IMG/VR virus record: IMGVR_UViG_3300042273_000539
Direction: 5' to 3' (one strand)
Source of the DNA: an uncultured virus (IMG/VR IMGVR_UViG_3300042273_000539)
Lineage: Duplodnaviria; Heunggongvirae; Uroviricota; Caudoviricetes
DNA length: 64,000 bases
Position numbers and translations under genes: made by a program. This document shows, piece after piece, positions 5,818-62,400 of the stretch. Numbering within the stretch: position 1 is the first letter of the stretch; each line of letters begins with the position of its first letter. The notes beneath the pieces are model-generated. The model was given only the letters and a program-made list of their open reading frames with translations. It was not told where the DNA came from and ran no database searches.

Positions 5818-7212
5818 CTACTTATAAATAATATAGTCAGTATCGTCAGCGATACTTTGATTTGTTCTTGTAAAAAATAATACGTTTCTACATTTTTCAT
5901 ATATCCCAGTTCTTTTAAATGGATAGAAAAAACCATCTGTAAGAACCACTACTAATGGCAGACTTTTTTCGTTTTCTACGTATAAATCCAAGTCGCCATT
6001 TTTCAAATGTATTCCGCTTTTTTCTTTATTATAGCATTTTTCTAGAATAAAGTCAAATATAGATTGTGGATTTGTTCCACCTCCTCCTATAAGAGGGGTA
6101 TTAGCCCAATCTCCTTGATTATAGAGTTTTATATCTCCATGAACAGCCCAATCCCATTGCATAAGATACACATTTCCTGTTTTTGTTTGTCTTAATTCTT
6201 TTGCTATGGCATCTATTTCCCTGAAAAAGTTTTCTGTTTCTTCTTTGCTAAAAAAACAAGAACCAGATGTATCAATGGCTAAAATAATAGCAGTTTCAAG
6301 ATTGTTTCTTTGCCTTAAAAAATGCGGAAAAATCATGTCGTTCCTGCTTTTAGGGTTCATTAAATAAGTAAGAAAACTTTTTTTCTTGCTATGCTTTGCA
6401 CTGTTTTTAGAAACATAAAAGTTTATTTTCTTTCTTAATTCCTTTTTCCAGTTTATTTCTGATTTTTTTAAACTTCTAATTTTTTTTGACATAGAGCCAG
6501 CATCTTTACCAGGAAGTTCACTTTCCATTTTCTCTGCTTGGCGAACCATACGCTCAATCATATTTTTAGTTTCTTGCTCTGATTGTTGACCGTCTCCCTC
6601 TTCTCCGCTATTTCCATCTTCTTCTGTTTCAACAGATTCCCCATCATACATGGTGTAAGTGATGGAGTAATTACTATCTTCCTGCGATAAAGAAACTTTA
6701 TCTCCTTTTTGCTCTGCTTGGACTTTATTTTCTTTTAACCAATGGTAGTATCTGATGGAAGAGTATCCATCTTCTTTGCTAATGTTTTTGTCATGCAAAA
6801 ACCATTTATAATCTTCAAGCACATATACTGCATCTGGCAAATACACTTTATCCAATGTAAGTTCTTTAAAATAAGAGAAATCAAACTCTTTTATCTCTTC
6901 GTTTATCATAGCATCAGTTGCTATGTTTATAAGCAACCTTTCGTTATCATCTTCCATTTTATTCTTGAAGGTATGAAGATGTTGTTTAAAGATATGTTGA
7001 GCTTCATGGGTTAGAATAAAATAGAGTTTTTCTATTGGCATTTCTAATATTCTATCGTGATAAAATATAGTTATCCCATTTTTAAAAGATACCCCTGCAA
7101 AAAAGTTCTCTGCTTCTACTTGCTTATAGTTAGCGTTAAGTAGAAACAGATACATAAGAGGTTCTTTATCACGCAAAAAAGCGATAAGTTTTGTTATTCT
7201 TTCTGGTCTCAT
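5818..7212 (-). CDS. HExxH metallopeptidase-like plus VWA domain protein (DUF2201-like)
   Basis: HEAQH, NIATDAMIN, MIDAS DTSGS, GGGGT, LTDG. Confidence 0.85.
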   Translation of the reverse strand: MRPERITKLIAFLRDKEPLMYLFLLNANYKQVEAENFFAGVSFKNGITIFYHDRILEMPIEKLYFILTHEAQHIFKQHLHTFKNKMEDDNERLLINIATDAMINEEIKEFDFSYFKELTLDKVYLPDAVYVLEDYKWFLHDKNISKEDGYSSIRYYHWLKENKVQAEQKGDKVSLSQEDSNYSITYTMYDGESVETEEDGNSGEEGDGQQSEQETKNMIERMVRQAEKMESELPGKDAGSMSKKIRSLKKSEINWKKELRKKINFYVSKNSAKHSKKKSFLTYLMNPKSRNDMIFPHFLRQRNNLETAIILAIDTSGSCFFSKEETENFFREIDAIAKELRQTKTGNVYLMQWDWAVHGDIKLYNQGDWANTPLIGGGGTNPQSIFDFILEKCYNKEKSGIHLKNGDLDLYVENEKSLPLVVVLTDGFFYPFKRTGIYEKCRNVLFFTRTNQSIADDTDYIIYK

Positions 7213-14569: not shown

Positions 14570-15098
14570 GAAAGATTGCCTCCTTTTAAATTTGATTTTG
14601 TTTTTTGTTATACTTTATTATAAACTTTTTTTAAAATTTTGTCAATTTTATTCTGCCAGTTCAAATCCAGATTCTATTGCTGTTTTTTTAGCTATTTCTA
14701 AACTTTCTGCTAACAGCCCACGAAGAAATTCGGGGTTTTCATCTATTGCTTCTACGGTTACATCAAACTGCGCTTTGCCTTTTGCAGTAGTAGAAACATT
14801 AATCCTTATTCTTTGCTTCTGCATCAATTCGCTTTGATTCATCTTCTATCTCCTCTATTTTTTCATTAAGAATAACTATCGTATTTTCCAAGTTTTCTTC
14901 ATAGGTTCTTTTGTTATAGTATATTTGGTCAAAATAATGTTTTCCATTAAACACAAATCTTACTACTTTCCCTTTACTTAAAAAATCTTCATTAATCACA
15001 TTTATATCTGTGATATTCACTTCTGGACAACGAAGTGACAGGTCTTTGTACAATACGTCCATATGTTTTCCTCCACATAAAGAAAGAGAGGTAGTTTT

Positions 15099-15395
15099 CT
15101 ACCTCTCTTTTACCAAGTCAAGAATTTCTTCTCGTAGGTGCTTATACCTACCATCCTTTTTCCAGATGTTTTTTATTTTGCCGTCCAATTTGTTATGGCA
15201 AGCTCTGCACATAGGAACATACTTGCCATTTCCTACATCAGCCCAATCCTGGGCTTGATTTTCATGGCATTTAGAACACTTATATTGGCTTGCTTTGCCT
15301 CTTTTGGCTACTATGCGATAATGCATAGCCCTTCTGGATATTTTTTTTGTTCCTTTCCAGTTGGAATTTTTTTCACCGCTTCTACTTTTGTCCAT
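15099..15395 (-). CDS. HNH-like endonuclease / NUMOD-like protein
   Basis: SGEKNSNWKG, CSKC, CRACH. Confidence 0.55.
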   Translation of the reverse strand: MDKSRSGEKNSNWKGTKKISRRAMHYRIVAKRGKASQYKCSKCHENQAQDWADVGNGKYVPMCRACHNKLDGKIKNIWKKDGRYKHLREEILDLVKER

Positions 15396-16938: not shown

Positions 16939-18372
16939 CATGAAAAGTCTTTCTACTGGTGAATATCTTTCTCCGTTTATTACCTCAAGCATGAAGGTTT
17001 CTGGGGAGCACCCCTCGGAAACGGCAAACTTGAAAACAGAAGGAGAAGACCCAGAAACAAGAACTGTGTTGATTTCGTCCTTGGAAACTGGAACATTGTT
17101 TTGTCTAGAATTTACATTCCAGAATACAATTTTTGGTATAGTATAACCGGCAAGGGCATACTTTTCTTTGATTGCTTCATAGTTAGTAACAGAAAAGTTG
17201 CCTTTCCTTCCATAACTAGAACTAGTGGCTTCATCAAACTCCATATCAGATATGATATATATAGTTTCTGGCATTTCTTCTTGTGGAACTTTTTCAGCTA
17301 GACAGATAGAAAGAATAGTTCTGAAAGCCTTAATAAGGTCAGTATTCATATCCCAGTTTGCCCGAGATATATTCCTCATTTTTTCTCCCAAAGTTTTTCC
17401 TCTTACCTGTTCTACACTTGGGTTTCCACTGAAAGTCATAAAACTTCCGTTAAATCTTCCTTTGTTCCTTTCTGCAAAATACAAAGCCAAAGATATAGAA
17501 ACAGCTATTGGCAATCCAGCCATAGAACCAGATACATCTGCCATTACGATAGCATTTTTGCCATTGGTAAAGTCAGGCAAATTATCCCATAGAGCAGTTG
17601 CCTCTTTATCGTTTATTTTGCCTTCCATCAATCTGGTATAGATCTCATAAGGGTATAGTACAGAAGCATTTATTTTTGCCTCTCCACTCTTGACTTTATT
17701 GATATAAGCTCCAAATCTATCAGTATCATTTCTTCCAAAAGCCTTATTATAGTTAAGCATAGCCTTTGAAGGAACGTGTTCATAGTTGATTTCGTCCCAA
17801 TCTTTTGCACACATCTTGGTTTCTACAAGATTAAGTTTAGCCCGAAGAGCAGAAAGAGCCTTCCTGTATTGTCTTGGGGTAAGCCCCATATACCTTGCGA
17901 TTGCTTCAGCTTCTTTGTTAGAAGATCCACCAACAGAAGGCATATACTTTTCCAAAAGGGTAGGTGTTTTTTCTCTGATGTCTCTTTTGAAGACAGCAGA
18001 AACAAACTCTTCATATTCATCGTGAGTCATTACTTCAAATACATCCTTCCAAGAACCGTAATAAGACATTAGCTTAATAAGTTCAGCCTTTGGAGCATCT
18101 TTATATTTATTCAAAAGCCAGCGAGTAGCAACTCTGAAAAATCTCTTTTCTCCAAGTCCTCCCCTACAATCTCTGATATAGAAAAGGCACTTCATAGCAA
18201 GTTGAGGATTTTCTTTAAAAGCATTGGAAAACATATTGATAATTTCGCTATCTTGGCGAGTTCTCATAGAGCCTCCCATTGCGAACATATCAACCAAAGC
18301 GGATTTGGATGTGCTTCTTGTCAAAGCGCCATTTTCAGTAAGTGTAAAGTCATTAAGTGTTTTCCAGAACAT
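16936..18372 (-). CDS. TROVE/Ro60-like protein with VWA domain (DUF2828-like)
   Basis: TENGA, RDCRGGLGE, YGSWKD, LYPYEI, DVSGSM, SDMEFD, VFWNV motifs. Confidence 0.85.
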   Translation of the reverse strand: MFWKTLNDFTLTENGALTRSTSKSALVDMFAMGGSMRTRQDSEIINMFSNAFKENPQLAMKCLFYIRDCRGGLGEKRFFRVATRWLLNKYKDAPKAELIKLMSYYGSWKDVFEVMTHDEYEEFVSAVFKRDIREKTPTLLEKYMPSVGGSSNKEAEAIARYMGLTPRQYRKALSALRAKLNLVETKMCAKDWDEINYEHVPSKAMLNYNKAFGRNDTDRFGAYINKVKSGEAKINASVLYPYEIYTRLMEGKINDKEATALWDNLPDFTNGKNAIVMADVSGSMAGLPIAVSISLALYFAERNKGRFNGSFMTFSGNPSVEQVRGKTLGEKMRNISRANWDMNTDLIKAFRTILSICLAEKVPQEEMPETIYIISDMEFDEATSSSYGRKGNFSVTNYEAIKEKYALAGYTIPKIVFWNVNSRQNNVPVSKDEINTVLVSGSSPSVFKFAVSEGCSPETFMLEVINGERYSPVERLFM

Positions 18373-24549: not shown

Positions 24550-24620
24550 TGGGAAAGAAGGGAATTGAACCCTCACCAGAAAATTTAGAGTTTTCTGTGC
24601 TACCGTTACACCACAAACCC
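24550..24620 (-). tRNA. Amber-suppressor-type tRNA (anticodon CTA)
   Basis: Loop CTCTAAA in stem AGAAAA/TTTTCT; D arm as in the local Gln tRNAs; acceptor has three U-U mismatches. Confidence 0.7.
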
Positions 24621-24930
24621 ATTCTATTATACATGTATTTTTATATAATTGTCTTTGTCAATAATTATTTTAATATCGTTAGGATAATCCCATCCGTCTC
24701 CAGCATAGAAAGCAATACTTTCTATATCTTCATATTTTATAGAAGATAAAGAATTATCATCTATAATTAGCATCCTTTCCTTGTTAAAGTCAATTAACAA
24801 CCTTCCAATAGAGGCAGTTACTTCTTGATTTTCTCTGAAACGAACAGTATTTTTTCTAAAATATTGTTTAAAAGAACTTAATACTTCTTCTACTTTCATA
24901 AAACGAACCTCTTTACATAATATTCTTTTT

Positions 24931-25142
24931 AGAGAAGGTAGGATTTGAACCTACATTCATGCCTGACTCTTATCGTGCACGAAAGAGAGTATTATGTACA
25001 CTTAACTCTCTGATTTTGCTCTACGTCTTCTCCAGCGCCTAGCTGGCGACAGATATGGGTGTCTGCCAACTGGAGCTATGAATAAAGTCACCGCCTCTGC
25101 AGCGACCGACAACATAACTCCCGTATTTTTCACCACTTCTCT
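24931..25142 (-). ncRNA. tRNA-framed RNA with large structured insert (212 nt)
   Basis: AGAGAAG/CTTCTCT acceptor, T arm GTAGG-TTCAAAT-CCTAC, long GGAGTTATG/CATAGCTCC arm and three extra hairpins. Confidence 0.65.
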
Positions 25143-25204
25143 ACCCACTGTTTTGCATAGGCTGGCACAGCGAAACCGTCATCCCACTTTCGTGGGGCAA
25201 AGTC

Positions 25205-25243
25205 AAAAAAGGACTGGGAAGATGTTTGGCACCCTCCCAGTCA
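25205..25243 (-). terminator. Intrinsic terminator after the Pth2-like gene
   Basis: GACTGGGA...TCCCAGTC hairpin followed by a T run. Confidence 0.7.
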
Positions 25244-25247
25244 AAAA

Positions 25248-25631
25248 TCACAAAAGTCTAAACCTTTCAAGTTCCCGAAGCCCTTCGCAAGGACCTATTG
25301 CCAAGCAAGTTGCTTCTTCCTTTTCTATGCCATTGCTGTCATAGAATCCGTTGTCTATCATTACATAAAACGGTAATGATGTTTTCTTAACACTTTCTAC
25401 TACATTATAAAAATCAGTTTCCGAGTTTGCTGAAAGAACTACTTTTGTAAATGGCTATCCTTTCTTTAAATCATTAAGAATAGCATCCGGTAAGTGGGAG
25501 AAGGTTACTGTTTTGTCGTTCCACTCTCCACTTGATAAAAGACACATAATAGCGCTGTGCGCCACTTGAGAAGCAATCCTCCCTTTTGACATTCCCAAGT
25601 CTTTCCTTACCAAAAAATACTGTTTAAGCAT
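25248..25631 (-). CDS. pth2: Peptidyl-tRNA hydrolase 2-like gene with in-frame TAG at codon 59 (readthrough or pseudogene)
   Basis: Hand translation MLKQYFLVRKDLGMSKGRIASQVAHSA...KKG*PFTKVVL...IDNG...TCLAIGP; missed by the ORF track. Confidence 0.8.
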
Positions 25632-25974
25632 TATTTACCTCCTTTACGAAAGGATCAGAAGGCAAATTCCATTTTTCACAAAATTTTCTTATTTCACCGC
25701 CGTATAACTCATTTTTCTCCCGTATCTTGGGTTCAATCTGCTTATACGATTTTCCTTTTAATATAGAATATACTACATTAAAAATCCTAGCATTTCTTCT
25801 GTTATCATCAAGATGATATTTTACATTCATATAGTCAGGGTATACTCTTCCCCTGAGTAAATTCTTGTATTTTACTTTTTCCTCTCTTATGTTTGCAGAG
25901 AGTTCTTTGTAATAGTCTTTCATCATAGAAACCACATTTCTATAATCTTCAATCGTATCAAAAATCTTTTCCAT
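25624..25974 (-). CDS. Hypothetical protein translationally coupled to pth2
   Basis: 116 aa, AGGAG SD, stop overlaps the pth2 start region. Confidence 0.75.
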   Translation of the reverse strand: MEKIFDTIEDYRNVVSMMKDYYKELSANIREEKVKYKNLLRGRVYPDYMNVKYHLDDNRRNARIFNVVYSILKGKSYKQIEPKIREKNELYGGEIRKFCEKWNLPSDPFVKEVNNA

Positions 25975-25983
25975 TTTACTTTT

Positions 25984-26078
25984 CTCCTATAAGTATGTTG
26001 TTGTCAGTTTTTTCTTAAGAAACCGACTATACTTATGGAGGTAATGATAATCTAAACTACTTCATGGGCTTATCCTCC
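25984..26078 (-). promoter_or_regulatory. Leader peptide (M-K-amber-FRLSLPP-stop) and SD-sequestering hairpin
   Basis: GGAGG SD, ATG 26065, TAG 26057-26059, TAA 26033-26035; CTCCATAAGTAT pairs with ATACTTAT-A-GGAG. Confidence 0.7.
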
Positions 26079-26210
26079 TTTTAATGAATTTTAGTTCATT
26101 TTTTATTTTTCTTCTTTTCGTTATACCTTATTATACAATTTTTTTAGTTTTTTAGCAACTATTTTTTTGGGTTATATTTTACCATGTGGTTCAATATCAT
26201 TTATCCTTCT

Positions 26211-26816
26211 TTATTTTTCAAAACGCTCTTTAAGATAAAGAATATTTTCATCTATTCCTTTTACATAATCTTCAAGAACTCCATCCTCTTCAAGCGTCTT
26301 TTTTAGATTTTCTAAAAACTCTATTCTTCCGATTAAATATCTATAAGTGCTTTTGCTCTGAAATTCCTTTCTTATAAGATTTTCATTGACTAACTGGTAT
26401 CCGTTGTTATTTTTGTAATACCATAGCAAATCCGCCTTCATAAGTAAATCGTTTTCAGGGTCTCCTGTAAATCTATGATATTTTGTAGCAAGGATTAAGT
26501 CAAATACTTTATCTGAATCAACAGAGTTTAAATCTTCTTTGTTTATAAACAAAGAATCAACTAAACCACTTTCCCACATAGACTTGAAAAACACAGCAGA
26601 TGCTAATTCATTTTCTTCGCTACCAGTAATGATTATAACATCATGATATAATATTGCAAGAGCAACATTTACAGTAAAATCAGGTTCTTTTGAAGCAAAG
26701 TGCATCATATCTTGAATATGATATATGGTATGATAAAACCTTCCTTCCCAATCATACATTTTTCTTAAAATTTGAAACGGGAAACTTTCTTCATTTATTT
26801 GAAGGTTTTTAATCAT
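26211..26816 (-). CDS. HD-superfamily metal-dependent phosphohydrolase
   Basis: RFYHTIYHI, LYHDVI, NELASA, ADL. Confidence 0.8.
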   Translation of the reverse strand: MIKNLQINEESFPFQILRKMYDWEGRFYHTIYHIQDMMHFASKEPDFTVNVALAILYHDVIIITGSEENELASAVFFKSMWESGLVDSLFINKEDLNSVDSDKVFDLILATKYHRFTGDPENDLLMKADLLWYYKNNNGYQLVNENLIRKEFQSKSTYRYLIGRIEFLENLKKTLEEDGVLEDYVKGIDENILYLKERFEK

Positions 26817-27415: not shown

Positions 27416-27423
27416 ATAAAAAA

Positions 27424-27975
27424 GGAACCAATAAAAATTATAGACCTTCATCTTACTATCCAATACTTCTTGAATATTAGGTTACTTGACGATAGAACCT
27501 GTGCTATGGGTAATTACTCCTTAGCATTTCTAAAGGGGATTTCTCCCGAACTCAAGGTGGGAATGGCTACCCACAAATTTCATCCGACTTTCAGGTTGTT
27601 AATCATCCAATATGTTTAAGAACCTGTGGAATTGGACTACTTTACGATTATGCACAACTTATACACAGATTTCTCTGTTTCAACCACAGTCCCTTCTTGC
27701 TTTTGACTTTTCCAGCAGTATCAAAGTTGTCAAGCCCGACTTACTGGATGGCTAGCGTATCGCCTATTGCGAAGGGGTCAGCATAATGACCTTTTCAAGC
27801 GTATTTTCAAGCACCTGTCTCTTGCTTTAACCTTTTTGAGGTTTATCCATCTAATCTTACGATTTTGACAGTTGGTTAAGTCAGCACGTATCCGTGATAA
27901 CTCACCAAAGCATTCAAGACAGTCCAAGCAAGGTTGTTAGCCTTCATACACTTGGGTATAACATTTAATGATTCC
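27424..27975 (-). ncRNA. Large ornate ncRNA (about 552 nt; ROOL/GOLLD-like context)
   Basis: ORF-free, own TTGACA/TATAAT promoter (27992-28020), pairing ends GGAATCA/TGGTTCC, many hairpins, within a tRNA cluster. Confidence 0.6.
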
Positions 27976-28028
27976 AAAAAACTTATACTTTATTATAACA
28001 AAATTCTAAAATTTTGTCAATTTTCAAA

Positions 28029-28807: not shown

Positions 28808-29797
28808 TCAATTTTTTATAAAACACATAGTTAAATCAACTGTTTTTTTATTCTTGTTATTGTTTTGATTTGCCTGTCTTGATGAAGAAACTAAACCAAA
28901 TTCTTTATCTAAATGAAATCCGTTTTTCTCATGGATATTTTTAACGTCATCAATCAATTTATAGTTTCCTATGTTATGAGTATTCCAACAAGAAACACCG
29001 TCTTTTTTTAAAGCTTTTAAACTTTTTTCTATAACTAAAGTTAACCATCCATTAGCCCATTCTTCGTATGAAGAAAACATGTTTTCACTTTGTGTTTTTT
29101 CATCACTATAAACTTCTAAATCAAAATAAGGAGGAGAAGTAATTACTAAATCAAACTCTTCTTGAAAATTTATATTTTCGCTTCCGTTGTTGTATACAGT
29201 TGCTAAATTTTCAAGATTCAAATAATGTATTAACTCCAATAAATTATTATAAGTTTCTTTATTTGTTTCAAATCCAACGTATTCTATATTACCAGACGCT
29301 ACTCCTAATAATCTTCCACCCCATCCACTACATGGGTCTAAAACTCTTTTAGGTTTATAAAAATCACATATCATTTTTGCTATATGCGGTCTATACATAG
29401 TATTCTTTGTTAACCCATTACAAAAATAAACTCCTCTTCTTAATTCTGATAAGTATGGGGTTGAATGTGAAGACCTATTCCACTTTAATACTTTTTGTAA
29501 ATTTTCCTTATTCCAAAAATCATTAAAAGATTCACCTTTATTGTTTTTTATTTTAAAAAAGTTAGGAAAAAAATATTCACAAAGTTTCATTCCAACTCTT
29601 ACTGTAGAAGCTGTAAAAGCTTCTTCTGTTTCAAAATTTTTTAACTTATCCCAATCTTTTAAAAGTTCTTTGTCTGTGTAAAAATAATGATAATCTACAT
29701 TACTCAATTCCTCCGCCAGTGTCGGTAGTATTTTTTTAAAACTATCTTCTGATAAATTTCTTGTTGAGTTTTTTTTGTTTAAAAAATCTTCTACCAT
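28808..29797 (-). CDS. Amino (N4-C/N6-A) DNA methyltransferase
   Basis: VLDPCSGWGGR (motif I) and TSPPY (motif IV). Confidence 0.85.
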   Translation of the reverse strand: MVEDFLNKKNSTRNLSEDSFKKILPTLAEELSNVDYHYFYTDKELLKDWDKLKNFETEEAFTASTVRVGMKLCEYFFPNFFKIKNNKGESFNDFWNKENLQKVLKWNRSSHSTPYLSELRRGVYFCNGLTKNTMYRPHIAKMICDFYKPKRVLDPCSGWGGRLLGVASGNIEYVGFETNKETYNNLLELIHYLNLENLATVYNNGSENINFQEEFDLVITSPPYFDLEVYSDEKTQSENMFSSYEEWANGWLTLVIEKSLKALKKDGVSCWNTHNIGNYKLIDDVKNIHEKNGFHLDKEFGLVSSSRQANQNNNKNKKTVDLTMCFIKN

Positions 29798-30342
29798 TGA
29801 GAAATATCCTTCATTTCGTGTAGCATACTTATTAATTTATTTCCAGAGCACATATAATCATCATTTGACGATGAAGATCCTCCTTGCTGTGTGTTAAAGT
29901 AAGTATCTTTAAAATGCTTTATAAATTCATCCTTTGTAAAATACTTAAAGTAAAAACTTTCGTCAAGATTTATCCCTAAAAAGATAAGTCTATCCCAATC
30001 CTTCCCATAAGAAACGTGGTTTATGACAAAAGTATCTGGCTTTATACATTTATTTACGTTATCTGTTTGAGCCAAAGAAAATTTTATCTCTGTTTTGATA
30101 CCGTCTATAATAGCATCATATCCATCTGTTATTGATTTTCTTTCTTCAATAATATGTCCAGAATTTTTCATAAAAATCTTTACAACTTTTTCGCCAAAAT
30201 TTCCCTTTTGAACGTTATTTAGTTGCTTATACCCTTCAAATGGAGTTCCTTGCCAAGGATTAAATTGTTCAGAGTTTATTAAATCTTTTATGATTTCATC
30301 CTCTAATAGTTTCACGTAAATTTCCCTTTTGCATCTCTCCAA
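29791..30342 (-). CDS. Putative PD-(D/E)xK restriction endonuclease
   Basis: KGNFGE...YDAIIDGIKTEIKFS; overlaps the MTase gene. Confidence 0.55.
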   Translation of the reverse strand: MERCKREIYVKLLEDEIIKDLINSEQFNPWQGTPFEGYKQLNNVQKGNFGEKVVKIFMKNSGHIIEERKSITDGYDAIIDGIKTEIKFSLAQTDNVNKCIKPDTFVINHVSYGKDWDRLIFLGINLDESFYFKYFTKDEFIKHFKDTYFNTQQGGSSSSNDDYMCSGNKLISMLHEMKDISQW

Positions 30343-35571: not shown

Positions 35572-36834
35572 TTATAATACATATTCTAACAATTCTTCTT
35601 TTGACGTAATGCCTTTGTTTATCTGTTTATCAAATAAATCATCAAGTATTATTTTGAATACTTTTCCAGGCTTCATTCCCAAAGCTATCAAATCATTTCC
35701 AGTTACCAAAGGAGCTACAAAGGTTTTTTCATCCTTACGAAGTTCCAGTATGGCATCTTTTATTTCAGTGTTCTTCTCTAATGCTTTTTCAGTCATGCTG
35801 TCTGCAACAGAAAGTTCTGCAAGTTTTACTGCTCTTTCGTCTTTTGCTAAAGCTATTCTCTTACTTTTTTTCATTTCAAGAAAATGCTTTACTTTCATAT
35901 GATTTTCAACTAACCATAGAATATCTTCTGCTTCCTTGTTGGAAACTTTAAGCATTTTTAATATAGGAAGAGCAAGCATAACAGAATCAGCTTCATGACC
36001 TTTAGAAGTTATTTTCCCATCTTCATTTTTAGTGGTAGTTAACTTTCCAAAGTCATGAAAAAGTCCAGCCAAGTTCAATACAAAATCATCAGTCTGTAGG
36101 TTTTTGATAACCTTCAAAGTATGAATCCATGTATCTCCCTCTGGGTGCCAAACAGCATCCTGTGGAACATTTTTCAAAGCAGAAGCATACGGAAAAATTT
36201 CATCTATAACATGTAAGTCATACAATAATTCTACAAATTTATGGAATTTATTTCCTGTTTTCTTTATCTCTGCCGTTATTCTTTCTGCACTAATGCTATG
36301 AAGTAAATGTTTGTTTTCTTTAATGGCAGAAACAGCCTCTTTATCAAGAGTAAATCCGTAAACAGAAGCAAATCTTATAGCACGTAGAATTCTTAAATGG
36401 TCTTCTAGAATTCTATCTTCTGCTTTTCCAATAAACCTTACAGTTCCAGTTTCTAAATCTTCAATTCCATAATGAAGGTCTATAATCTTATCTTTAATCG
36501 GGTCAAAATATAATGCATTAAAAGTAAAGTCCCTTCTGTTAGAGTCTTCTTCAAGAGAAGAACTAAAATGAACACTTTTAGGCTTTCTACCGTCATAAGA
36601 ACTTTCAGTTCTAAAAGTAGCTACCTCAACCCCGCTTACGAGAGATATGCCGAAACTTTCTCCCACAAAAAAAGAGGTTTCAAAAATTTTTGAAACCTCT
36701 TCAGGAGTAGCGGAAGTCACTACGTCAATATCTTTTGGAGGTTTCCTTAAAATCATATCTCTTACGCATCCACCTACGAAGTAGGCTTCAAATCCATTTT
36801 CTTGTAGTTTTTTTACGATGTCAATTTCTTTCAT
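35572..36834 (-). CDS. cca: CCA-adding tRNA nucleotidyltransferase with HD domain
   Basis: VGGCVRD, DIDV, RRDFTFNAL, EDHLRILRAIRF, HPEGD..HT, HDFGK. Confidence 0.9.
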   Translation of the reverse strand: MKEIDIVKKLQENGFEAYFVGGCVRDMILRKPPKDIDVVTSATPEEVSKIFETSFFVGESFGISLVSGVEVATFRTESSYDGRKPKSVHFSSSLEEDSNRRDFTFNALYFDPIKDKIIDLHYGIEDLETGTVRFIGKAEDRILEDHLRILRAIRFASVYGFTLDKEAVSAIKENKHLLHSISAERITAEIKKTGNKFHKFVELLYDLHVIDEIFPYASALKNVPQDAVWHPEGDTWIHTLKVIKNLQTDDFVLNLAGLFHDFGKLTTTKNEDGKITSKGHEADSVMLALPILKMLKVSNKEAEDILWLVENHMKVKHFLEMKKSKRIALAKDERAVKLAELSVADSMTEKALEKNTEIKDAILELRKDEKTFVAPLVTGNDLIALGMKPGKVFKIILDDLFDKQINKGITSKEELLEYVL

Positions 36835-42996: not shown

Positions 42997-44724
42997 ATAT
43001 TTATATCTTACCACCTTATTAAAAAAGAGTCATTTATTATCGCATCCCTTAAAAAAGAAGCAAATGCAACAAATCAAAGCCAAATAAAGAACTACATATA
43101 CAGCAATCATATTGTTTATCTTTCCTCTATTATATAAAAATTTTAGTTTTTTGTCAACTATATTTTACACCCTATCAATCTTATCAGTTGTTATAACTTC
43201 TTGCTTTTTTTCTCCAACTAATGCAATAATAGCAATACCTATAAGACCTAGAAAAAACCCAAGGCAAAATCCACCAACAGTGCTTCTTCCTCTCTTTTCA
43301 CTCATTACAGCTCCAATGATGCCAGTAATAAGCCAAATAGCAATCATTAAAAGTGTTTGTCCATCCATTCTTTTTACTCCTTCACTGATTGCAGTTCTGG
43401 TGATAACTCACTTTTCAAAATACACCTTTTGCAAGTGGTGTCTCGCTTGTGTCCAAAAAAGATGTTACCACACACAACACAACGGTTCTCATATGTACCG
43501 TTACCTTCCTTGTCTGTATGTAAAATTTCATCAAGGTTTTTCATAAACTCGGTCATACATCCACCTTCATAAATTTGTACCTTCTGCCTGTTCCAACTTC
43601 TTCCCCTATAAAGGGATATTTTCTTGCTTTTGTATTAAACCCGACAAATTTAAGAATCTTCCCGTTATAGGTAAAAGTTTTACCATAATCTTCCGGCTTT
43701 TTGCCAAACATATTACAAAGACGTTTAAATTCTGCTTCTTCTCCTGAAATATCCCAATCTGAAATAAGCCCTTTTACTGGCATAGAAAATGACGAAGGGG
43801 TATATCTAATGGTTCCAGTAGTTAAAGTTATATTATATTTATCCTTCAAACCTTTAACTGCTTCATTAAAATCTGCTCTAAACGCATCCCAATCAATAGA
43901 CATTTTCTCCTCCTATTCTACAAATCCTTTAAAAATATATTCTGTCTTTTCTTTTATTTCGGCACTAAATCTGGTAGGATTATGTTTTGTTACTTCTACA
44001 TATCCAAGTTTATCAGAATCTATATTTAGTTCATAGGTTTCATAGTCATTAGTTTGCACAATAGTACGAGTTATTTCAACAGGCGAAGTATAATCAATTC
44101 CGAAGGAAACAGCACTTAATACTATTAACAAAATACCTATCCAAAAATAAGGTTCATCAAGCCCTTCCAAAATTCCGCCAAAAAACAAAATAAGACCCAG
44201 CACAATAAAAATCATAAACAAAAATAACCACATATATAAAACTCCTTTTTACTTCATAGAAAGAGAACAGCATTACCTAACAGCGTACTCACAAGAATTT
44301 CTTCTTGCTTATGGGTGTTTCAGGGTTCCTGGTTTGCAATGCCTACTACAAACCCTTTTTCGTTTTTGCTCTCTTATTGTTCAAAATCCGTTAATTTTTC
44401 TTCACACCACTTACATTCATCATTAAGTAGTATATCGTCCCCTGTATTTAAATAGGCACACCAGTTAAATTCTTCTTTTACTAAACCAAAAAACCTTTTA
44501 TGCCTTTTGAGATAGGGACAAGGTTTTGTTACGGTTATTCCTGTTTCCATGTCATGATGAATAGTTGTATAGCAATATTCACCCTCTGGAATTTCACTTA
44601 TGTCCTTTTTATCAATAGAAGAATATCTCATTTTGATAATAGGGTGAAAATCCATTAAGTGTATAAAAATTTTATTCATCATGTTCCCTTTACTCTCTTA
44701 TTATAGCTTTTTTTTAGTTTTTTG

Positions 44725-45891
44725 TCAAGTAGCTTTAAAGTTCCATATAGGTTTTAAAGTTCTTACAATTTCAACAGATGGCTCCAAGTACCTTATAATT
44801 TCTTCTGGGTCTTTATAAGCCATAGGTGATTCGTCAAGAGTGCTTAAACCTATACAAGAGGATTTAATACCTTTCATCTGCTCTTCAAACTCTTCCATAG
44901 AAAGCGTTTTCTTTGCTTCACTTCTTGACATTTTTCTACCAGCACCATGAGGAGCAGAAAAATTCCATTCTTCATTTCCTTTTCCAGTGCCTATGATAGC
45001 ACCATCTTTCATTGAAAGAGGTATTATAACTTTCTCTCCTTTTTGAGCAGAGATAGCCCCTTTGCGGATTATACCATTTTTCAAGTCAATATAGTTATGT
45101 ACAGACTCAACTATATTATCATAACCATACTTTTCTGATATATCTTCTATAATAATATTTCTATTTATAGAAGCATATTCCTGTGCTACCATCATATGCT
45201 CTAAATACTTTGAAAAATTATCACCTTCAAGCCATTCTAGACCGCTAGTAGTTTTAGGCAATGCTTCTATAGCAAGTCGCAATTCTTCGCCTGTATATTT
45301 CTGCTTCAAAGTGTCAATATCATTTTTTCTGTAGTTTATACTCTTTGCCATATCCTGATGAAATTCTGCTATTTTTTTGCCAAAATTTCTTGAACCAGTA
45401 TGAGCTAAAAGCCAAAATTTACCTTCATTATCTTCATCTATTTCAATGAAGTGATTTCCACCACCAAGAGTGCCTAAAGATTTCATAACCCTATGAAAAC
45501 CCTGTCCTGTTTCACGGCAAACTTTCAAAACCCTTTCGTGAAAATCTTTGTCAAATTTTCTTGCATCTTTATCTCTAACACTAGAACCAGTAGGAATATT
45601 TTCTTTTGTAAATTTCTCTATGTCGTCTAAATCAAATTTCTTTGACAGACGAACAGCCAAAACTCCACATCCAATATCTACTCCTATCAAGTTAGGCACA
45701 ACCTTATCAGTAAGTTTTGCAGTATACCCTATTACGCACCCAGCGCCTGCGTGAACGTCAGGCATTACCCTTACATGTGCGTCTTTTGCCATAGGCTGAT
45801 TCAATAAAGAGATTATTTGTGATATTGCTCCTTCTTCTGCAAAATCATTATAGATTATTGCGTTTTCATACTTTCCTTTTAACTCTATCAT
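44725..45891 (-). CDS. rtcB: RtcB RNA ligase
   Basis: MPDVHAG, GVDIGCG, GTLGGGNHFIE, HTGSR, HNY, RKGA, SAPHGAGR, DESPMAYK. Confidence 0.95.
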   Translation of the reverse strand: MIELKGKYENAIIYNDFAEEGAISQIISLLNQPMAKDAHVRVMPDVHAGAGCVIGYTAKLTDKVVPNLIGVDIGCGVLAVRLSKKFDLDDIEKFTKENIPTGSSVRDKDARKFDKDFHERVLKVCRETGQGFHRVMKSLGTLGGGNHFIEIDEDNEGKFWLLAHTGSRNFGKKIAEFHQDMAKSINYRKNDIDTLKQKYTGEELRLAIEALPKTTSGLEWLEGDNFSKYLEHMMVAQEYASINRNIIIEDISEKYGYDNIVESVHNYIDLKNGIIRKGAISAQKGEKVIIPLSMKDGAIIGTGKGNEEWNFSAPHGAGRKMSRSEAKKTLSMEEFEEQMKGIKSSCIGLSTLDESPMAYKDPEEIIRYLEPSVEIVRTLKPIWNFKAT

Positions 45892-59492: not shown

Positions 59493-62400
59493 TCAACCGC
59501 AAGTAGAATATCCACAACTGCTACAAACCGTACAGCCACCCTCAAAAACCATAGTTCCACCACATTCAGGGCATTCTGCTTTATTAGAAGAAATCATTTC
59601 TCCATCAGGTATATAATACTTCAATACCCTCGCAATGGCTTTTTGGAACGTCCCAAACTTCTTTACTTTATTCATCTGTGCGACAATAAACTCCAATGGA
59701 ACTTGATGCCTCATCAATAAAGAAAGCAATCTACACATAGAAGCATAATCATCATTAAACACCTCTGCTAAATTTTCTACTACTATCTTACTTCGCTTGC
59801 CTTCAATAAGCAAATCATATCTACTGGCTTTTTCAGCACCATCATATACCTTAACAATACTACCTTCTTTAAATCTCTTTAAATCAACTATATCATCATG
59901 ATTATCTGTATAGAAGATTTCATATGGTGCGTTATTGTAAGGTGAATCTGGATTTTTACCAACTAGGACAATAACAGGTTCTTTATTAACTGTAATATCA
60001 TAGATATCGCAAGGCAAGCTTTCTGGACGTTTCATAGCATTTTTCAATACCTCAATATTTCTCCATCCATCATCTTTCTTTGTAGAAAGAATACCATCCA
60101 TAGAAGCACCTTCATGAAAAGAAGTAACTCCCTTCAATCCCTTTTTCCAGGAATACATGAATATATCTTTATATTGCTCTAGTGTAGTTTCAAAAGGCAT
60201 GTTAATGGTTTTACTGATACTGTGGTCTATCCAGTATTGAAGTGCTGCCTGTATATCTATTCCTTCTGTAATAGATACATTATGGGATACCACTACATAA
60301 TCAGGAAGATCATTTCCTTCTTTGTATCCTGCGTACTCTATGTATTCCAGCCATCCATCATCATATACAGTTTGTGTTTTTGTGGTATCATCATCCTGTC
60401 TTATAGACCTATCATACTGCAAAGAGAAAATAGGCTCAATACCAGAAGAACAGTTATTTCCCAAAGACAAAGAAGTGGTGTTATGACTAACATATGAATT
60501 TGCAATATAAGTTCTTCCGTCTGGAACTTCCAAGTCTAAAGTGTAATTATTACTATCGCTTATAGCAACAACTTCATCAATAAACAATCCCTTTCCAAAA
60601 TAATCATTAAGATAATCTACTTTCTCTTTTAAATCTTTTTTAATATATCTCTTTGCTCTCTCTTCTCCGATAGAGCCATATTTTTTCCAATAAATCCTGT
60701 AAGATAAATTGTTTGAATAGCTACCTTCATCAAGAGATTTATCATAAACTGAAATAGATGAATTAATACCTACTGCTCTCATTATAATAGCTAATTGTTG
60801 AGCATTTTTTTCGGAATAAGTATCAATATACATTGTCCCTCTGCTGCTTGAACCATCACCATAAAAATATCCATCAATATAAGAAAGGATACTTTCTTTA
60901 GAAGATAATCTTACTGCTTTTGGAATTTCTATTCCTAATGCTTTATTTTTTATTAATCCATTAATTTCTAAAAAGTTAAGTAATCTTTGAGAAGAAATAT
61001 ACACACTGTCACAATTTTTACCATTATCAACAACTTTAGAATTCCAATTAAATAAATTCTTAATCAGTTCAACAACTTCTATTGATTCATTTGTTAAATG
61101 ATTTAAGTTAATTCTTATGCCTTTGTTGTGAGTGCTACCATCTGCATTATAAAGTCCTAAAAAGAAAGCAAATTCAGCGGTAATCTCTTCCGGTAATCTT
61201 ATATCTTTTTCATTAGGGTGTTTTGCATAATCTGGAAGTATAAGCCGTTTATTATCTTTCTTTTCATATCCTCCAATTTTATAAACTATATTATCTCCAA
61301 CAGATAGGTCTTCAAGTTTCTTCCAGTCAAACGAAGTTCCATTTAACACTTTAAACTTATGATTTGGAGTTCCTTCTAAATTTACACCACTCTTTGTAGA
61401 TATTTTTTTAGTAGGTTTAAATCCATTTATAAAAGTATTCCTTATTCCTTCGTACTTTTCATATTCGTTTAATGCTCCAAGATTTTCTTGTGGTATCCAA
61501 GTTCCATCTTCATAGTTTTTATAATTAGGAATTAATTCTTCCAATGTGTATAAACCATCGTTAGTTGATACAATACTTTCTGGAACAAGACATCCGGTTG
61601 GTGCCGTGGTTAATATACCAATGTTTCTTAACCCGACTTCTTGAATTCTTTTCTGTGTTCCTTCACTTAACCTTGTAATAAATCCAGAATGCCCAATATG
61701 ACTATCATAAGCAGGAAACGAGCCTTTTTGTAATGCTAAATCAACAGAAGCATTATACGCACTTTCTGCTAGGACATTTCCCATTTCATATACAAAATCT
61801 ACACTTTCTTTACTTCCATATCTAATCTTTAATTTCAACAAAGCATCGCCAAGTCCTGTAATTCCAAGACCAATCCTTCTCCATGCTTTTGATATTTTCT
61901 CAATTTTTTCAAGAGGATAATCAGTAGCATCCAAGACATTATCCAAGAACCTTACTCCAAGTCTTGCCATGTTTTTAAATTCTTCCCAATCAAATTCTGC
62001 ATTCTCTGTAAATTGATTTTTTACCAATTTAGAAAGATTGATAGAAGATAGACAGCAAAGAGAATAAGAAGGCATTACGATTTCCATCAGTTATTGTTAA
62101 GCTCTTTATCTTAACTCTCCGATTTTCACCGGAGTGTCGGACTATATCTTCACCCATAATATGGGGCAGGGCGCTCGTGGGAAAATTACCTACCGTTCTG
62201 GTATCGTTTCCTAGTCTCTGAACCTTGCAGAGTATTCCTACTCTACCTTGGATGCTGATTAGCATATTCTTTTTCAAGAATTTAGCTTTCCAGCAGTTCA
62301 CCCTGTTTTTTACTTGAGGCAAGATTATTTACCACAAGGATTGCATCTATCTACCTTAAAAGCGTGAGAAGCATTGTTTCCTGCTTCCACTGTATCAAGG

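What the first reader, a model, noticed from the sequence alone, without database searches (positions are those of the whole stretch)
25984..26158. Amber-readthrough-gated leader: M-K-UAG-FRLSLPP-stop overlaps an SD-sequestering hairpin
Seen: a promoter (26130-26158) precedes a strong GGAGG SD and ATG AAG TAG TTT AGA TTA TCA TTA CCT CCA TAA. The Pro-Pro-stop codons form the 5' strand of a long hairpin whose 3' strand contains the AGGAG SD of the next gene. Known: Pro-Pro-stop impairs termination, and stalled ribosomes can open inhibitory hairpins. Inference: only ribosomes that read through UAG (suppressor tRNA or low RF1) reach PP-stop and expose the SD, so the operon (116-aa protein plus Pth2) acts as a stop-codon-readthrough sensor.
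Basis: partly seen in the sequence, partly recalled or inferred. Interest (0 to 1): 0.88.

Follow-up and report, generated by a model that had tools for sequence, protein, structure and literature searches.

The report
Amber-codon leader before phage Pth2 operon
A large phage places a tiny upstream reading frame, interrupted by a UAG stop codon, in front of a hairpin that hides the ribosome-binding site of a two-gene operon, so the operon may be switched on only when the phage's own UAG-reading tRNA is working, though this is untested.

Summary
The anatomy is real and lies on the minus strand. A repeated phage promoter (26158-26130) is followed by AAGGAGG, 8 nt, and ATG AAG TAG TTT AGA TTA TCA TTA CCT CCA TAA. 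A -17.7 kcal/mol hairpin (z -4.1) has CUCC-AUAAGUAU, the Pro-Pro-stop codons, as its 5' arm. Its 3' arm holds the GGAG of the 116-aa gene's ribosome-binding site.

The downstream Pth2 gene has an in-frame TAG at a Gln that is invariant in its four closest homologues. A tRNA with anticodon CUA lies 0.65 kb further on. The phage otherwise uses the standard code: terminase, portal and major head genes have no in-frame TAG. Masking a ribosome footprint in the fold leaves the site paired at AUG or UAG (0.80) and frees it at UAA (0.04-0.40).

The one independent relative with readable sequence keeps the whole leader. It has only two wobble-preserving changes in the stem, so neither the TAG nor the Pro-Pro is tested by natural variation. 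CCUCC is also what any anti-Shine-Dalgarno arm needs. The tRNA has three U-U mismatches in its acceptor stem.

Verdict: observation confirmed. Amber-gated unmasking is the best single reading (about 0.4) but is unproven. It would be a new variant of known leader-peptide and amber-gating themes.

The parts
26130..26158 (-). Sigma-70-type promoter TTGCTA-17-TATAAT, one copy of a repeated phage promoter consensus
   Evidence: conserved in L002 with TTGTCA as the -35 hexamer
26083..26100 (-). Small 5'-UTR stem-loop, AAUGAA/UUCAUU with a 6-nt loop, just before the first ribosome-binding site
   Evidence: Read. The only change in L002 is in the loop. A similar small hairpin precedes AGGAGGATAA..ATG of the gene at 18372
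26074..26080 (-). First Shine-Dalgarno sequence, AAGGAGG, 8 nt before the ATG
26057..26065 (-). Two-codon mini-ORF ATG AAG TAG as read by the standard code
26033..26065 (-). Ten-codon leader ORF if UAG is decoded: M-K-(UAG)-F-R-L-S-L-P-P-UAA
   Evidence: identical in L002
25984..26040 (-). Hairpin that pairs the second ribosome-binding site; its 5' arm contains CCU CCA UAA and its 3' arm contains GGAG
   Evidence: -17.7 kcal/mol, z -4.12
25984..25988 (-). Second Shine-Dalgarno sequence, AGGAG, of the 116-aa gene, 9 nt before its ATG
25624..25974 (-). 116-aa all-helical protein of unknown function; no internal TAG; overlaps the Pth2 start by 8 nt
   Evidence: (six homologues, all 116 aa, 70-98% identical)
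25248..25631 (-). Pth2 peptidyl-tRNA hydrolase, 127 codons, with its own AGGAGG site (25643) and an in-frame TAG at codon 59
   Evidence: (PF01981, one stretch 2-116, E 5.7e-19)
25455..25457 (-). In-frame TAG of Pth2, aligned to an invariant Gln (GQPFTK) of the four closest homologues
25212..25242 (-). Terminator-like hairpin with a T-run, directly after the Pth2 stop codon
24550..24620 (-). tRNA with anticodon CUA and anticodon loop CUCUAAA; three U-U mismatches in the acceptor stem

Best explanation
This is the 5' leader of a phage operon encoding a 116-aa helical protein and Pth2. A strong consensus phage promoter drives a transcript whose first translation start (AAGGAGG-8-AUG) opens a frame that the standard code closes after two codons (M-K-UAG). 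Ribosomes that stop there sit 17 nt upstream of a stable hairpin that pairs the ribosome-binding site of the 116-aa gene, so that gene stays poorly translated. If UAG is decoded by the phage's tRNA(CUA), the ribosome goes on for seven codons to Pro-Pro-UAA, which lies inside the 5' arm of the hairpin. A ribosome terminating there, probably slowly because C-terminal Pro-Pro impairs termination, melts the stem, frees the ribosome-binding site and allows initiation on the 116-aa gene. Pth2 has its own strong ribosome-binding site but carries an internal UAG at a conserved Gln. Both genes of the operon would therefore depend on amber suppression, by two different routes. Shown here: the sequence anatomy, the stability of the hairpin, the Pth2 amber codon, the tRNA and the standard-code background. 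Inferred: that the leader is translated, that UAG is read through, and that this controls the output.
For: The first AGGAGG+ATG is of the type that otherwise opens real genes, and it sits behind the same promoter as real genes. In the footprint-masked folding, mean pairing probability of the second ribosome-binding site is 0.80 when free, 0.80 with a ribosome at AUG or with UAG in the A site, and 0.04-0.40 with UAA in the A site. The Pth2 TAG is spanned by a single PF01981 stretch. It aligns to Gln in PDB chains 1xty and 2zv3 and in 4 of 4 close homologues, P0007-P0010. tRNA-CUA lies 0.65 kb downstream. The code is otherwise standard: 0 in-frame TAG in terminase (913 aa), portal (672 aa), protease and major head protein (577 aa), and Pth2 is the only mid-gene TAG backed by homology in the 64-kb window. 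No other strong ribosome-binding-site/ATG pair with an early TAG exists in the window. The leader is conserved in a relative (L002) whose upstream gene differs and whose 116-aa protein is 75% identical. There are 0 changes in the 48 nt from the first ribosome-binding site to the TAA, and 10 changes in the 195 aligned leader columns overall. The two stem changes (C26025>U, A26004>G) both keep a G-U pair. The joint chance of a TAG stop plus a well-placed second stop is about 0.06-0.12. C-terminal Pro-Pro arrests termination in E. coli (PMC3834316, passages read). Stop-codon read-through is a documented regulatory input of a leader ORF in PepNL (PMC11890864, abstract read).
Against: There is no experimental or expression evidence. 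Only one independent sequence (L002) could be read, and it is identical across the mini-ORF, which has roughly a 9% chance at the local 5% divergence, so conservation is weak evidence. Pro-Pro follows automatically from an in-frame CCUCC anti-Shine-Dalgarno arm. TAG alone (24-33%) and the open frame alone (23-36%) are unremarkable. The tRNA-CUA has only 4 of 7 standard acceptor pairs, the lowest of the 34 tRNAs, so its activity and amino-acid identity are uncertain; its overall similarity does not single out tRNA-Gln. P0007, 91% identical, has a sense Gln codon at the Pth2 site, so that amber codon may be a recent neutral change tolerated under suppression, as in the model of Borges et al. (bioRxiv 10.1101/2021.08.26.457843, passages read). 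TAG still ends about 10 of 68 long ORFs. Both amber codons are followed by a pyrimidine, which from memory of E. coli work is a poor context for suppression.
Confidence: 0.4

Rival explanations
1. The hairpin is a translational damper or operator, and the mini-ORF is an unrelated ribosome-loading site. The hairpin simply lowers translation of the 116-aa gene, or is opened by temperature or by a protein, possibly the 116-aa product itself. The strong ribosome-binding site with a two-codon ORF near the 5' end holds ribosomes that protect the mRNA from 5' decay, as strong Shine-Dalgarno sites do in Firmicutes. TAG is just its stop codon, and the frame behind it has no meaning.
For: The hairpin is real, but several other gene starts in the window also have paired ribosome-binding sites. 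Pro-Pro is the reading of the CCUCC arm. TAG and the open frame are each unremarkable. Ribosomes initiating at a strong Shine-Dalgarno site block RNase J1 on B. subtilis hbs mRNA (PMC5737220, abstract seen in the listing). A weak PHROG hit (E 0.0068, 'transcriptional regulator') and a weak HTH hit in one distant homologue leave room for an autoregulator.
Against: It does not explain why the stop is TAG in the only operon with a verified in-frame TAG, next to a tRNA-CUA. It also does not explain why the second stop falls exactly where a terminating ribosome would melt the stem. The host is unknown, so RNase J-type decay is an assumption.
Confidence: 0.33
2. The first ribosome-binding site, ATG and a few codons are an evolutionary relic: the stump of an earlier gene start behind this promoter, left when the hairpin and 116-aa/Pth2 cassette was joined to it. 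It has no regulatory role.
For: The 5' UTR design (promoter, small hairpin, AGGAGGATAA, ATG) is the same as at the real gene at 18372. The gene upstream of the module differs between the window (a 201-aa phosphohydrolase-like protein) and L002 (two small ORFs), which shows recombination around it.
Against: The stump is kept without a single change in a lineage whose 116-aa protein is 75% identical. An active strong start site that makes nothing useful would be expected to decay.
Confidence: 0.12
3. A bar-like minigene coupled to Pth. AUG-AAG-UAG is a two-codon minigene that yields fMet-Lys-tRNA by drop-off, as the lambda bar minigenes do. Either it loads the cell with peptidyl-tRNA while the phage supplies its own Pth2, or it reports on peptidyl-tRNA turnover.
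For: A two-codon ORF behind a strong ribosome-binding site, in the leader of a peptidyl-tRNA hydrolase operon. Minigenes are known to sequester tRNA as peptidyl-tRNA and to act as regulators (PMC2490762 and PMC8708949, abstracts seen in the listing; lambda bar details recalled from memory).
Against: No evidence beyond the juxtaposition. A ribosome at UAG does not touch the hairpin, so no link to downstream translation follows from it.
Confidence: 0.06

Closest known systems
Translation-attenuation leaders (ermC/ermB, cat, cmlA type), details recalled from memory; also the E. coli uORF upstream of topAI-yjhQ (PMC12121999, abstract seen in the listing)
   Same: A short leader ORF with its own ribosome-binding site. 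The downstream gene's ribosome-binding site is sequestered in a hairpin that overlaps the end of the leader ORF. A ribosome held in the leader opens the hairpin.
   Different: In those leaders the input is drug-induced stalling. Here the proposed input is whether a UAG at codon 3 is decoded at all, and the stall site would be a constitutive Pro-Pro-stop.
PepNL leader of E. coli pepN (PMC11890864, abstract read)
   Same: A leader ORF whose regulatory state depends on read-through of its own stop codon by a tRNA.
   Different: PepNL arrests at UGA through a folded nascent peptide, and near-cognate Trp-tRNA read-through relieves the arrest. Here read-through by a dedicated suppressor tRNA would carry the ribosome into a hairpin.
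Stop-codon recoding and suppressor tRNAs in phages (Borges et al., bioRxiv 10.1101/2021.08.26.457843, passages read)
   Same: A phage-encoded TAG suppressor tRNA; an in-frame TAG at a Gln position; the idea that in-frame stops delay expression until the suppressor acts; standard-code phages that have acquired a suppressor tRNA as a first step.
   Different: This phage is not recoded in its head genes. The amber codons sit in a tRNA/translation-maintenance operon rather than in lysis or structural genes. One of them lies in a non-coding-length leader rather than in a protein.
RF2 (prfB) autoregulatory frameshift site (recalled from memory)
   Same: An early in-frame stop codon acts as a sensor of how efficiently that stop is read.
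   Different: prfB uses a +1 frameshift within its own coding sequence and senses RF2. Here there is no frameshift and no release-factor gene in the window (one search found none among the 45 ORFs scanned).
Pth2 genes of tRNA-rich jumbo phages such as XacN1, Atu_ph07 and phiM7
   Same: A PF01981 Pth2 encoded by a large phage with many tRNA genes. tblastn with homologue P0009 matched 27 phage records at 36-39% identity among the 15 listed, all annotated as peptidyl-tRNA hydrolase.
   Different: The annotation of those hits shows no interruption. No close relative is in the phage collection.

Membership tests
Translation-attenuation leader (leader ORF plus a hairpin sequestering the ribosome-binding site) | Leader ORF with its own ribosome-binding site upstream of the regulated gene | tested here: met
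   AAGGAGG-8-ATG at 26080-26063
Translation-attenuation leader (leader ORF plus a hairpin sequestering the ribosome-binding site) | Ribosome-binding site of the regulated gene paired in a stable hairpin | tested here: met
   -17.7 kcal/mol, z -4.12; mean pairing probability 0.80
Translation-attenuation leader (leader ORF plus a hairpin sequestering the ribosome-binding site) | A ribosome paused in the leader ORF overlaps and opens the hairpin | tested here: inconclusive
   Met only if UAG is decoded. With UAA in the A site pairing falls to 0.04-0.40; with UAG in the A site it stays at 0.80. This is a model, not a measurement.
Translation-attenuation leader (leader ORF plus a hairpin sequestering the ribosome-binding site) | Output responds to the stalling signal | not testable with these tools
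   Needs reporter or toeprint assays
TAG-recoded ('code 15') phage | In-frame TAG in many genes, especially structural and lysis genes | tested here: not met
   0 in-frame TAG in terminase, portal, protease and major head genes. One homology-backed case (Pth2) in the 64-kb window, and no long ORF with an in-frame TAG in the extra 20 kb. Only about 84 kb of an estimated 220 kb was seen (completeness 21%).
TAG-recoded ('code 15') phage | Phage-encoded suppressor tRNA(CUA) | tested here: met
   (56 bits), but with three U-U mismatches in the acceptor stem
TAG-recoded ('code 15') phage | TAG not used as a terminator | tested here: not met
   About 10 of 68 long ORFs end in TAG, though some of these overlap tRNA genes and are doubtful
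Pth2 (PF01981) | Profile match above the curated cut-off over the whole domain | tested here: met
   68.9 bits against a cut-off of 23, residues 2-116, read with TAG=Q; PDB Pth2 chains match at E 1e-8
Lambda bar-type minigene | Two- to three-codon ORF with a ribosome-binding site | tested here: met
   ATG AAG TAG behind AAGGAGG
Lambda bar-type minigene | Peptidyl-tRNA accumulation and Pth-dependent toxicity | not testable with these tools
   Needs expression in a Pth-limited strain
5' mRNA stabiliser by ribosome binding (STAB-SD / hbs type) | A strong ribosome-binding site near the 5' end that does not serve the main ORF | tested here: met
5' mRNA stabiliser by ribosome binding (STAB-SD / hbs type) | Host with 5'-exonucleolytic decay (RNase J) and an effect on mRNA half-life | not tested
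   Host unknown; no genome is held for this window

The most novel reading that the evidence does not exclude
The leader is a sensor of amber suppression. It lets a standard-code phage switch on a translation-maintenance operon (an unknown 116-aa protein plus Pth2) only after its own tRNA(CUA) has begun to override UAG. The 116-aa gene is gated through a UAG-interrupted leader peptide that must reach a Pro-Pro-stop inside a hairpin sequestering the ribosome-binding site. Pth2 is gated through an internal UAG at a conserved Gln. The Pro-Pro-stop pause would also make the output sensitive to how fast termination and peptidyl-tRNA turnover run, which would amount to a feedback loop on the enzyme that the operon encodes.
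Probability: 0.35. Interest if true: 0.8.

Novelty: new variant of a known kind. Interest (0 to 1): 0.58.

Why it matters
If true, this would be a natural riboregulator whose input is the decoding state of a stop codon. It would give phages a way to time genes by their own suppressor tRNA without recoding the proteins themselves. It would also give a compact part for reporting amber suppression or RF1 activity in cells. It further shows an early stage of phage code change: a suppressor tRNA plus one or two amber codons on a standard-code background, sited in a translation-repair operon rather than in lysis genes. If false, it is an ordinary hairpin over a ribosome-binding site behind a spurious or stabilising mini-ORF.

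Tried and rejected
1. General TAG recoding was rejected. ORF totals under TAG-sense are no better than under TGA-sense, head genes have no TAG, and TAG ends some genes.

2. Two other mid-gene TAGs (14799-15395 and 43553-44233) were examined. No family match spans the TAG, and each has an ATG a few codons after it, so I read them as adjacent genes.

3. Other early-TAG frames (starts at 2908, 5999, 19236, 30686, 51023) have no ribosome-binding site and are spurious.

4. More relatives were sought without success. The phage collection gave no DNA match. IMG/VR returned only the contig that is identical to the window. GTDB genomes gave no relative of the 116-aa protein and only distant archaeal or bacterial Pth2. 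Relatives of a virus record cannot be drawn. No genome is held for the window.

5. Laying contigs of four runs showed relatives in runs labelled bovine, mixed-culture and sludge metagenomes and a gut metatranscriptome. The table of differences was cut (31 rows hidden), so it cannot show that the leader TAG or the Pth2 TAG is kept. The only listed change in the leader is 26000 G>A (plus strand), in all four runs. X11's 5 changes over 25868-26097 match L002-type changes by kind. One RNA-library contig spans 25318-26066, but DNA carry-over cannot be excluded.

6. The 58-aa N-terminal Pth2 piece found no homologue among short proteins.

7. Function of the 116-aa protein remains open: no Pfam family, an AlphaFold model with pLDDT 82 that is all-helical, no PDB fold match at E<=0.001, and 28 distant homologues of which the 15 scanned carry no significant Pfam family.

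8. The hairpin as a repeated element was rejected: it is unique in the window. As a terminator it was rejected: no T-run follows it.

9. The mini-ORF and the 116-aa ORF are in different frames (91 nt apart) with several stops between them, so this is not an N-terminal extension.

10. Earlier notes of this scan were searched by place and by sequence and gave nothing.

Full report
**What is there.** The finding lies on the minus strand.
- A sigma-70-type promoter, TTGCTA-17-TATAAT, occupies 26158-26130.
- Its extended -10 region recurs 4 times in the window with at most 3 mismatches, against 0 expected. At two of the other three copies it is followed, some 45-50 nt later, by AGGAGG and the ATG of a long gene (618 and 478 codons). 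The third runs into a tRNA region.
- In the leader the same layout is present: a small stem-loop (26100-26083), AAGGAGG (26080-26074), an 8-nt spacer and ATG (26065).
- The frame then reads ATG AAG TAG (26059-26057) TTT AGA TTA TCA TTA CCT CCA TAA (26035-33).
- From 26040 to 25984 the RNA folds into a two-part hairpin. The outer stem is CUCC-AUAAGUAU paired with AUACUUAU-(A)-GGAG. The inner stem is GUCGGUUU paired with AAACUGAC.
- The hairpin has an MFE of -17.7 kcal/mol, z -4.12, and 0 of 200 shuffles fold as well.
- The GGAG of the 3' arm is the core of the ribosome-binding site (AGGAG, 25988-25984) of the 116-aa gene, whose ATG is at 25974.

**How special it is.**
- The hairpin sequence is unique in the window.
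- Its upstream fold ranks 5th of 64 candidate gene starts by MFE, with pairing probability 0.80 for the ribosome-binding site. It is unusual but not unique as a paired site.
- AGGAGG followed by a start codon is a good predictor of real starts here. Of the 16 minus-strand AGGAGG sites, 11 have a start codon 3-11 nt downstream. Apart from the 2-codon leader these open frames of 29-618 codons. None of the 8 plus-strand sites has a start. Ribosomes very probably load on the leader AUG.
- The TAG is not improbable by itself: TAG is 24% of stop triplets on this strand, and 33% of the stops that close ATG-frames of 3 or fewer sense codons.
- The next stop falling in the 5' arm is not improbable either (23-36%). 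The joint chance is about 0.06-0.12.
- Pro-Pro is the in-frame reading of CCUCC, the sequence that any anti-Shine-Dalgarno arm needs.

**Context.** The window belongs to a large tRNA-rich phage.
- It holds 34 tRNA genes by ARAGORN and a ROOL RNA at 27422-27979.
- It also encodes a CCA-adding-enzyme-like protein, an RtcB ligase, HD-domain proteins and a ribonucleotide reductase.
- An IMG/VR contig identical over the region (G002, 46.9 kb, completeness estimate 21%) extends 20 kb beyond the window.
- That extension carries terminase large subunit, portal, head protease and major head protein genes with no in-frame TAG.
- TAG ends about 10 of 68 long ORFs.

The phage therefore uses the standard code in the 84 kb seen.

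**The operon.**
- The 116-aa gene (25974-25624) has six homologues, all of 116 residues and 70-98% identical. It has no Pfam family. Its model is all-helical (pLDDT 82) with no significant fold match.
- Pth2 (25631-25248) overlaps it by 8 nt and has its own AGGAGG.
- Pth2 is interrupted by TAG at codon 59.
- Read through, it gives one PF01981 stretch over residues 2-116 (68.9 bits).
- The TAG aligns to Gln in two solved Pth2 structures and to an invariant Gln (GQPFTK) in the four closest full-length homologues, which are 91, 61, 58 and 54% identical.
- A terminator-like hairpin follows the Pth2 stop.
- A tRNA with anticodon CUA and loop CUCUAAA lies at 24620-24550.
- Pth2 is the only mid-gene TAG in the window that homology supports. 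The leader TAG sits in the same operon.

**Does the proposed mechanism fit the geometry?** I folded the leader from about the expected transcription start to +30 of the gene, forcing a ribosome-sized stretch (-12 to +11/13/15 of the P site) to be unpaired.

| Ribosome position | Mean pairing probability of the second ribosome-binding site |
|---|---|
| None (free RNA) | 0.80 |
| AUG in the P site | 0.80 |
| UAG in the A site | 0.80 |
| UAA in the A site | 0.04-0.40 |

Only a ribosome that has passed the UAG can open the stem. C-terminal Pro-Pro is documented to arrest termination in E. coli (PMC3834316, passages read), which would prolong the open state. The 116-aa ORF has no TAG of its own, and Pth2 has its own ribosome-binding site. 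The leader would therefore gate the first gene and the internal TAG the second, which removes the objection that the two gates are redundant. This is inference from sequence and from a folding model.

**Comparative evidence is thin.**
- One independent relative could be read: L002, a 2.2-kb metagenome contig.
- It is syntenic upstream (tRNAs and the ROOL region). Two small ORFs replace the 201-aa gene, and its 116-aa protein is 75% identical over the 75 residues present.
- The module from promoter to ATG is kept, with 10 changes in 195 aligned columns. None lies in the 48 nt from the first ribosome-binding site to the TAA.
- Three changes lie in the hairpin. One is in the internal loop. Two are in the inner stem (C26025>U opposite G, A26004>G opposite U) and both keep a wobble pair.
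- The first 100 nt of the coding region are equally conserved (4 changes), so the leader is not more conserved than its surroundings. No variant tests the TAG or the Pro-Pro.
- Contigs of four runs laid on the region show further relatives. One RNA-library contig spans Pth2, the 116-aa gene and the leader up to 26066.
- The difference table was truncated (31 rows hidden), so it supports no claim about those codons. Among the rows shown, none changes the Pth2 TAG in the two runs that cover it.

**Points against.**
- The tRNA-CUA has three consecutive U-U mismatches in its acceptor stem, which gives it the fewest standard acceptor pairs of the 34 tRNAs.
- Its D-arm is nearly identical to the phage tRNA-Gln(UUG), but overall similarity does not single out Gln. 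Its activity and identity are therefore open.
- The 91%-identical Pth2 (P0007) has a sense Gln codon. The Pth2 amber is lineage-specific and could be a neutral CAG/CAA>TAG change tolerated under suppression. Borges et al. propose exactly this as the first step towards recoding (bioRxiv 10.1101/2021.08.26.457843, passages read).
- The same could hold for the leader: an ordinary 10-codon coupling uORF whose Gln codon became TAG.

**Rivals.**
- (a) The hairpin is a plain damper or an operator, and the strong ribosome-binding site with its mini-ORF stabilises the mRNA by holding ribosomes. The B. subtilis hbs mRNA is a precedent (PMC5737220, abstract seen in the listing).
- (b) The first ribosome-binding site and ATG are the stump of an earlier gene start.
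- (c) AUG-AAG-UAG is a bar-like minigene linked to Pth. PMC2490762 and PMC8708949 were seen as abstracts in the listing; the lambda bar details are recalled from memory.

I put amber-gated unmasking at about 0.40, (a) at 0.33, (b) at 0.12 and (c) at 0.06.

**Comparison with what is known.**
- It works like erm/cat-type translation attenuation (recalled from memory), with a different input.
- PepNL shows that read-through of a leader's stop codon can be a regulatory signal (PMC11890864, abstract read).
- prfB shows an early stop codon used as a sensor (recalled from memory).
- The phage is not a member of the recoded ('code 15') phages, because that test was run and not met for head genes and for TAG terminators.
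- Earlier notes of this scan describe amber codons at codon 4 of small genes beside phage suppressor tRNAs in other standard-code phages (e1-4040081, e1-4046024, e1-4046722, e1-5749954). These are unchecked leads, not evidence, but they suggest that early-codon amber gating is a recurring theme.
- My searches of the held papers turned up no description of a UAG-interrupted leader peptide coupled to a hairpin over a ribosome-binding site. That is no proof that none is in print.

**Verdict.** If true it is a new variant of known kinds. Interest is moderate to high because it can be tested directly with a handful of reporter constructs.

Noticed in passing
window 24550-24620 (-): The tRNA(CUA) has three consecutive U-U mismatches in the middle of its acceptor stem (GGGUUUG/CUUUCCC) yet scores 56 bits as a tRNA. 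It is the only one of 34 tRNAs with just 4 of 7 standard acceptor pairs.
   Followed up: partly
window 24925-25205 (-): A roughly 280-nt, more GC-rich, strongly structured RNA lies between the Pth2 terminator and the next ORF (MFE -99 kcal/mol, z -4.4). Its 3' end looks like a tRNA T-arm plus an acceptor strand that pairs with TAGAGAAG about 200 nt upstream. ARAGORN calls a tRNA-like gene only at a lowered threshold and with a 125-nt insert, and Rfam gives only a weak tRNA hit of 22 bits. Its nature is unknown.
   Followed up: partly
window 62117-62368 (-): A group I intron (Rfam RF00028, 74 bits) splits the ribonucleotide reductase large-subunit gene between profile positions 213 and 214. The downstream exon also carries an intein with a LAGLIDADG domain.
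   Followed up: partly
window 27422-27979 (-): A full-length ROOL RNA (236 bits) sits among the tRNA genes and is conserved in the relative L002.
   Followed up: no
window 5818-7212 and 29791-30342 (-): Two genes that end in TAG have a TAA one to three codons further on in frame. These are possible back-up stops in a phage that carries an amber suppressor.
   Followed up: no
window 35572-36831 and 44725-45888 (-): A CCA-adding-enzyme-like protein (PolyA_pol head plus HD domains) and an RtcB tRNA ligase lie within the tRNA region. Together with Pth2 they form a tRNA-maintenance set.
   Followed up: no
window 26211-26816 (-) versus L002 1383-1756: The gene upstream of the promoter-leader module differs between relatives: a 201-aa phosphohydrolase-like protein here and two small ORFs in L002. 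The break lies exactly at the start of the conserved module.
   Followed up: partly
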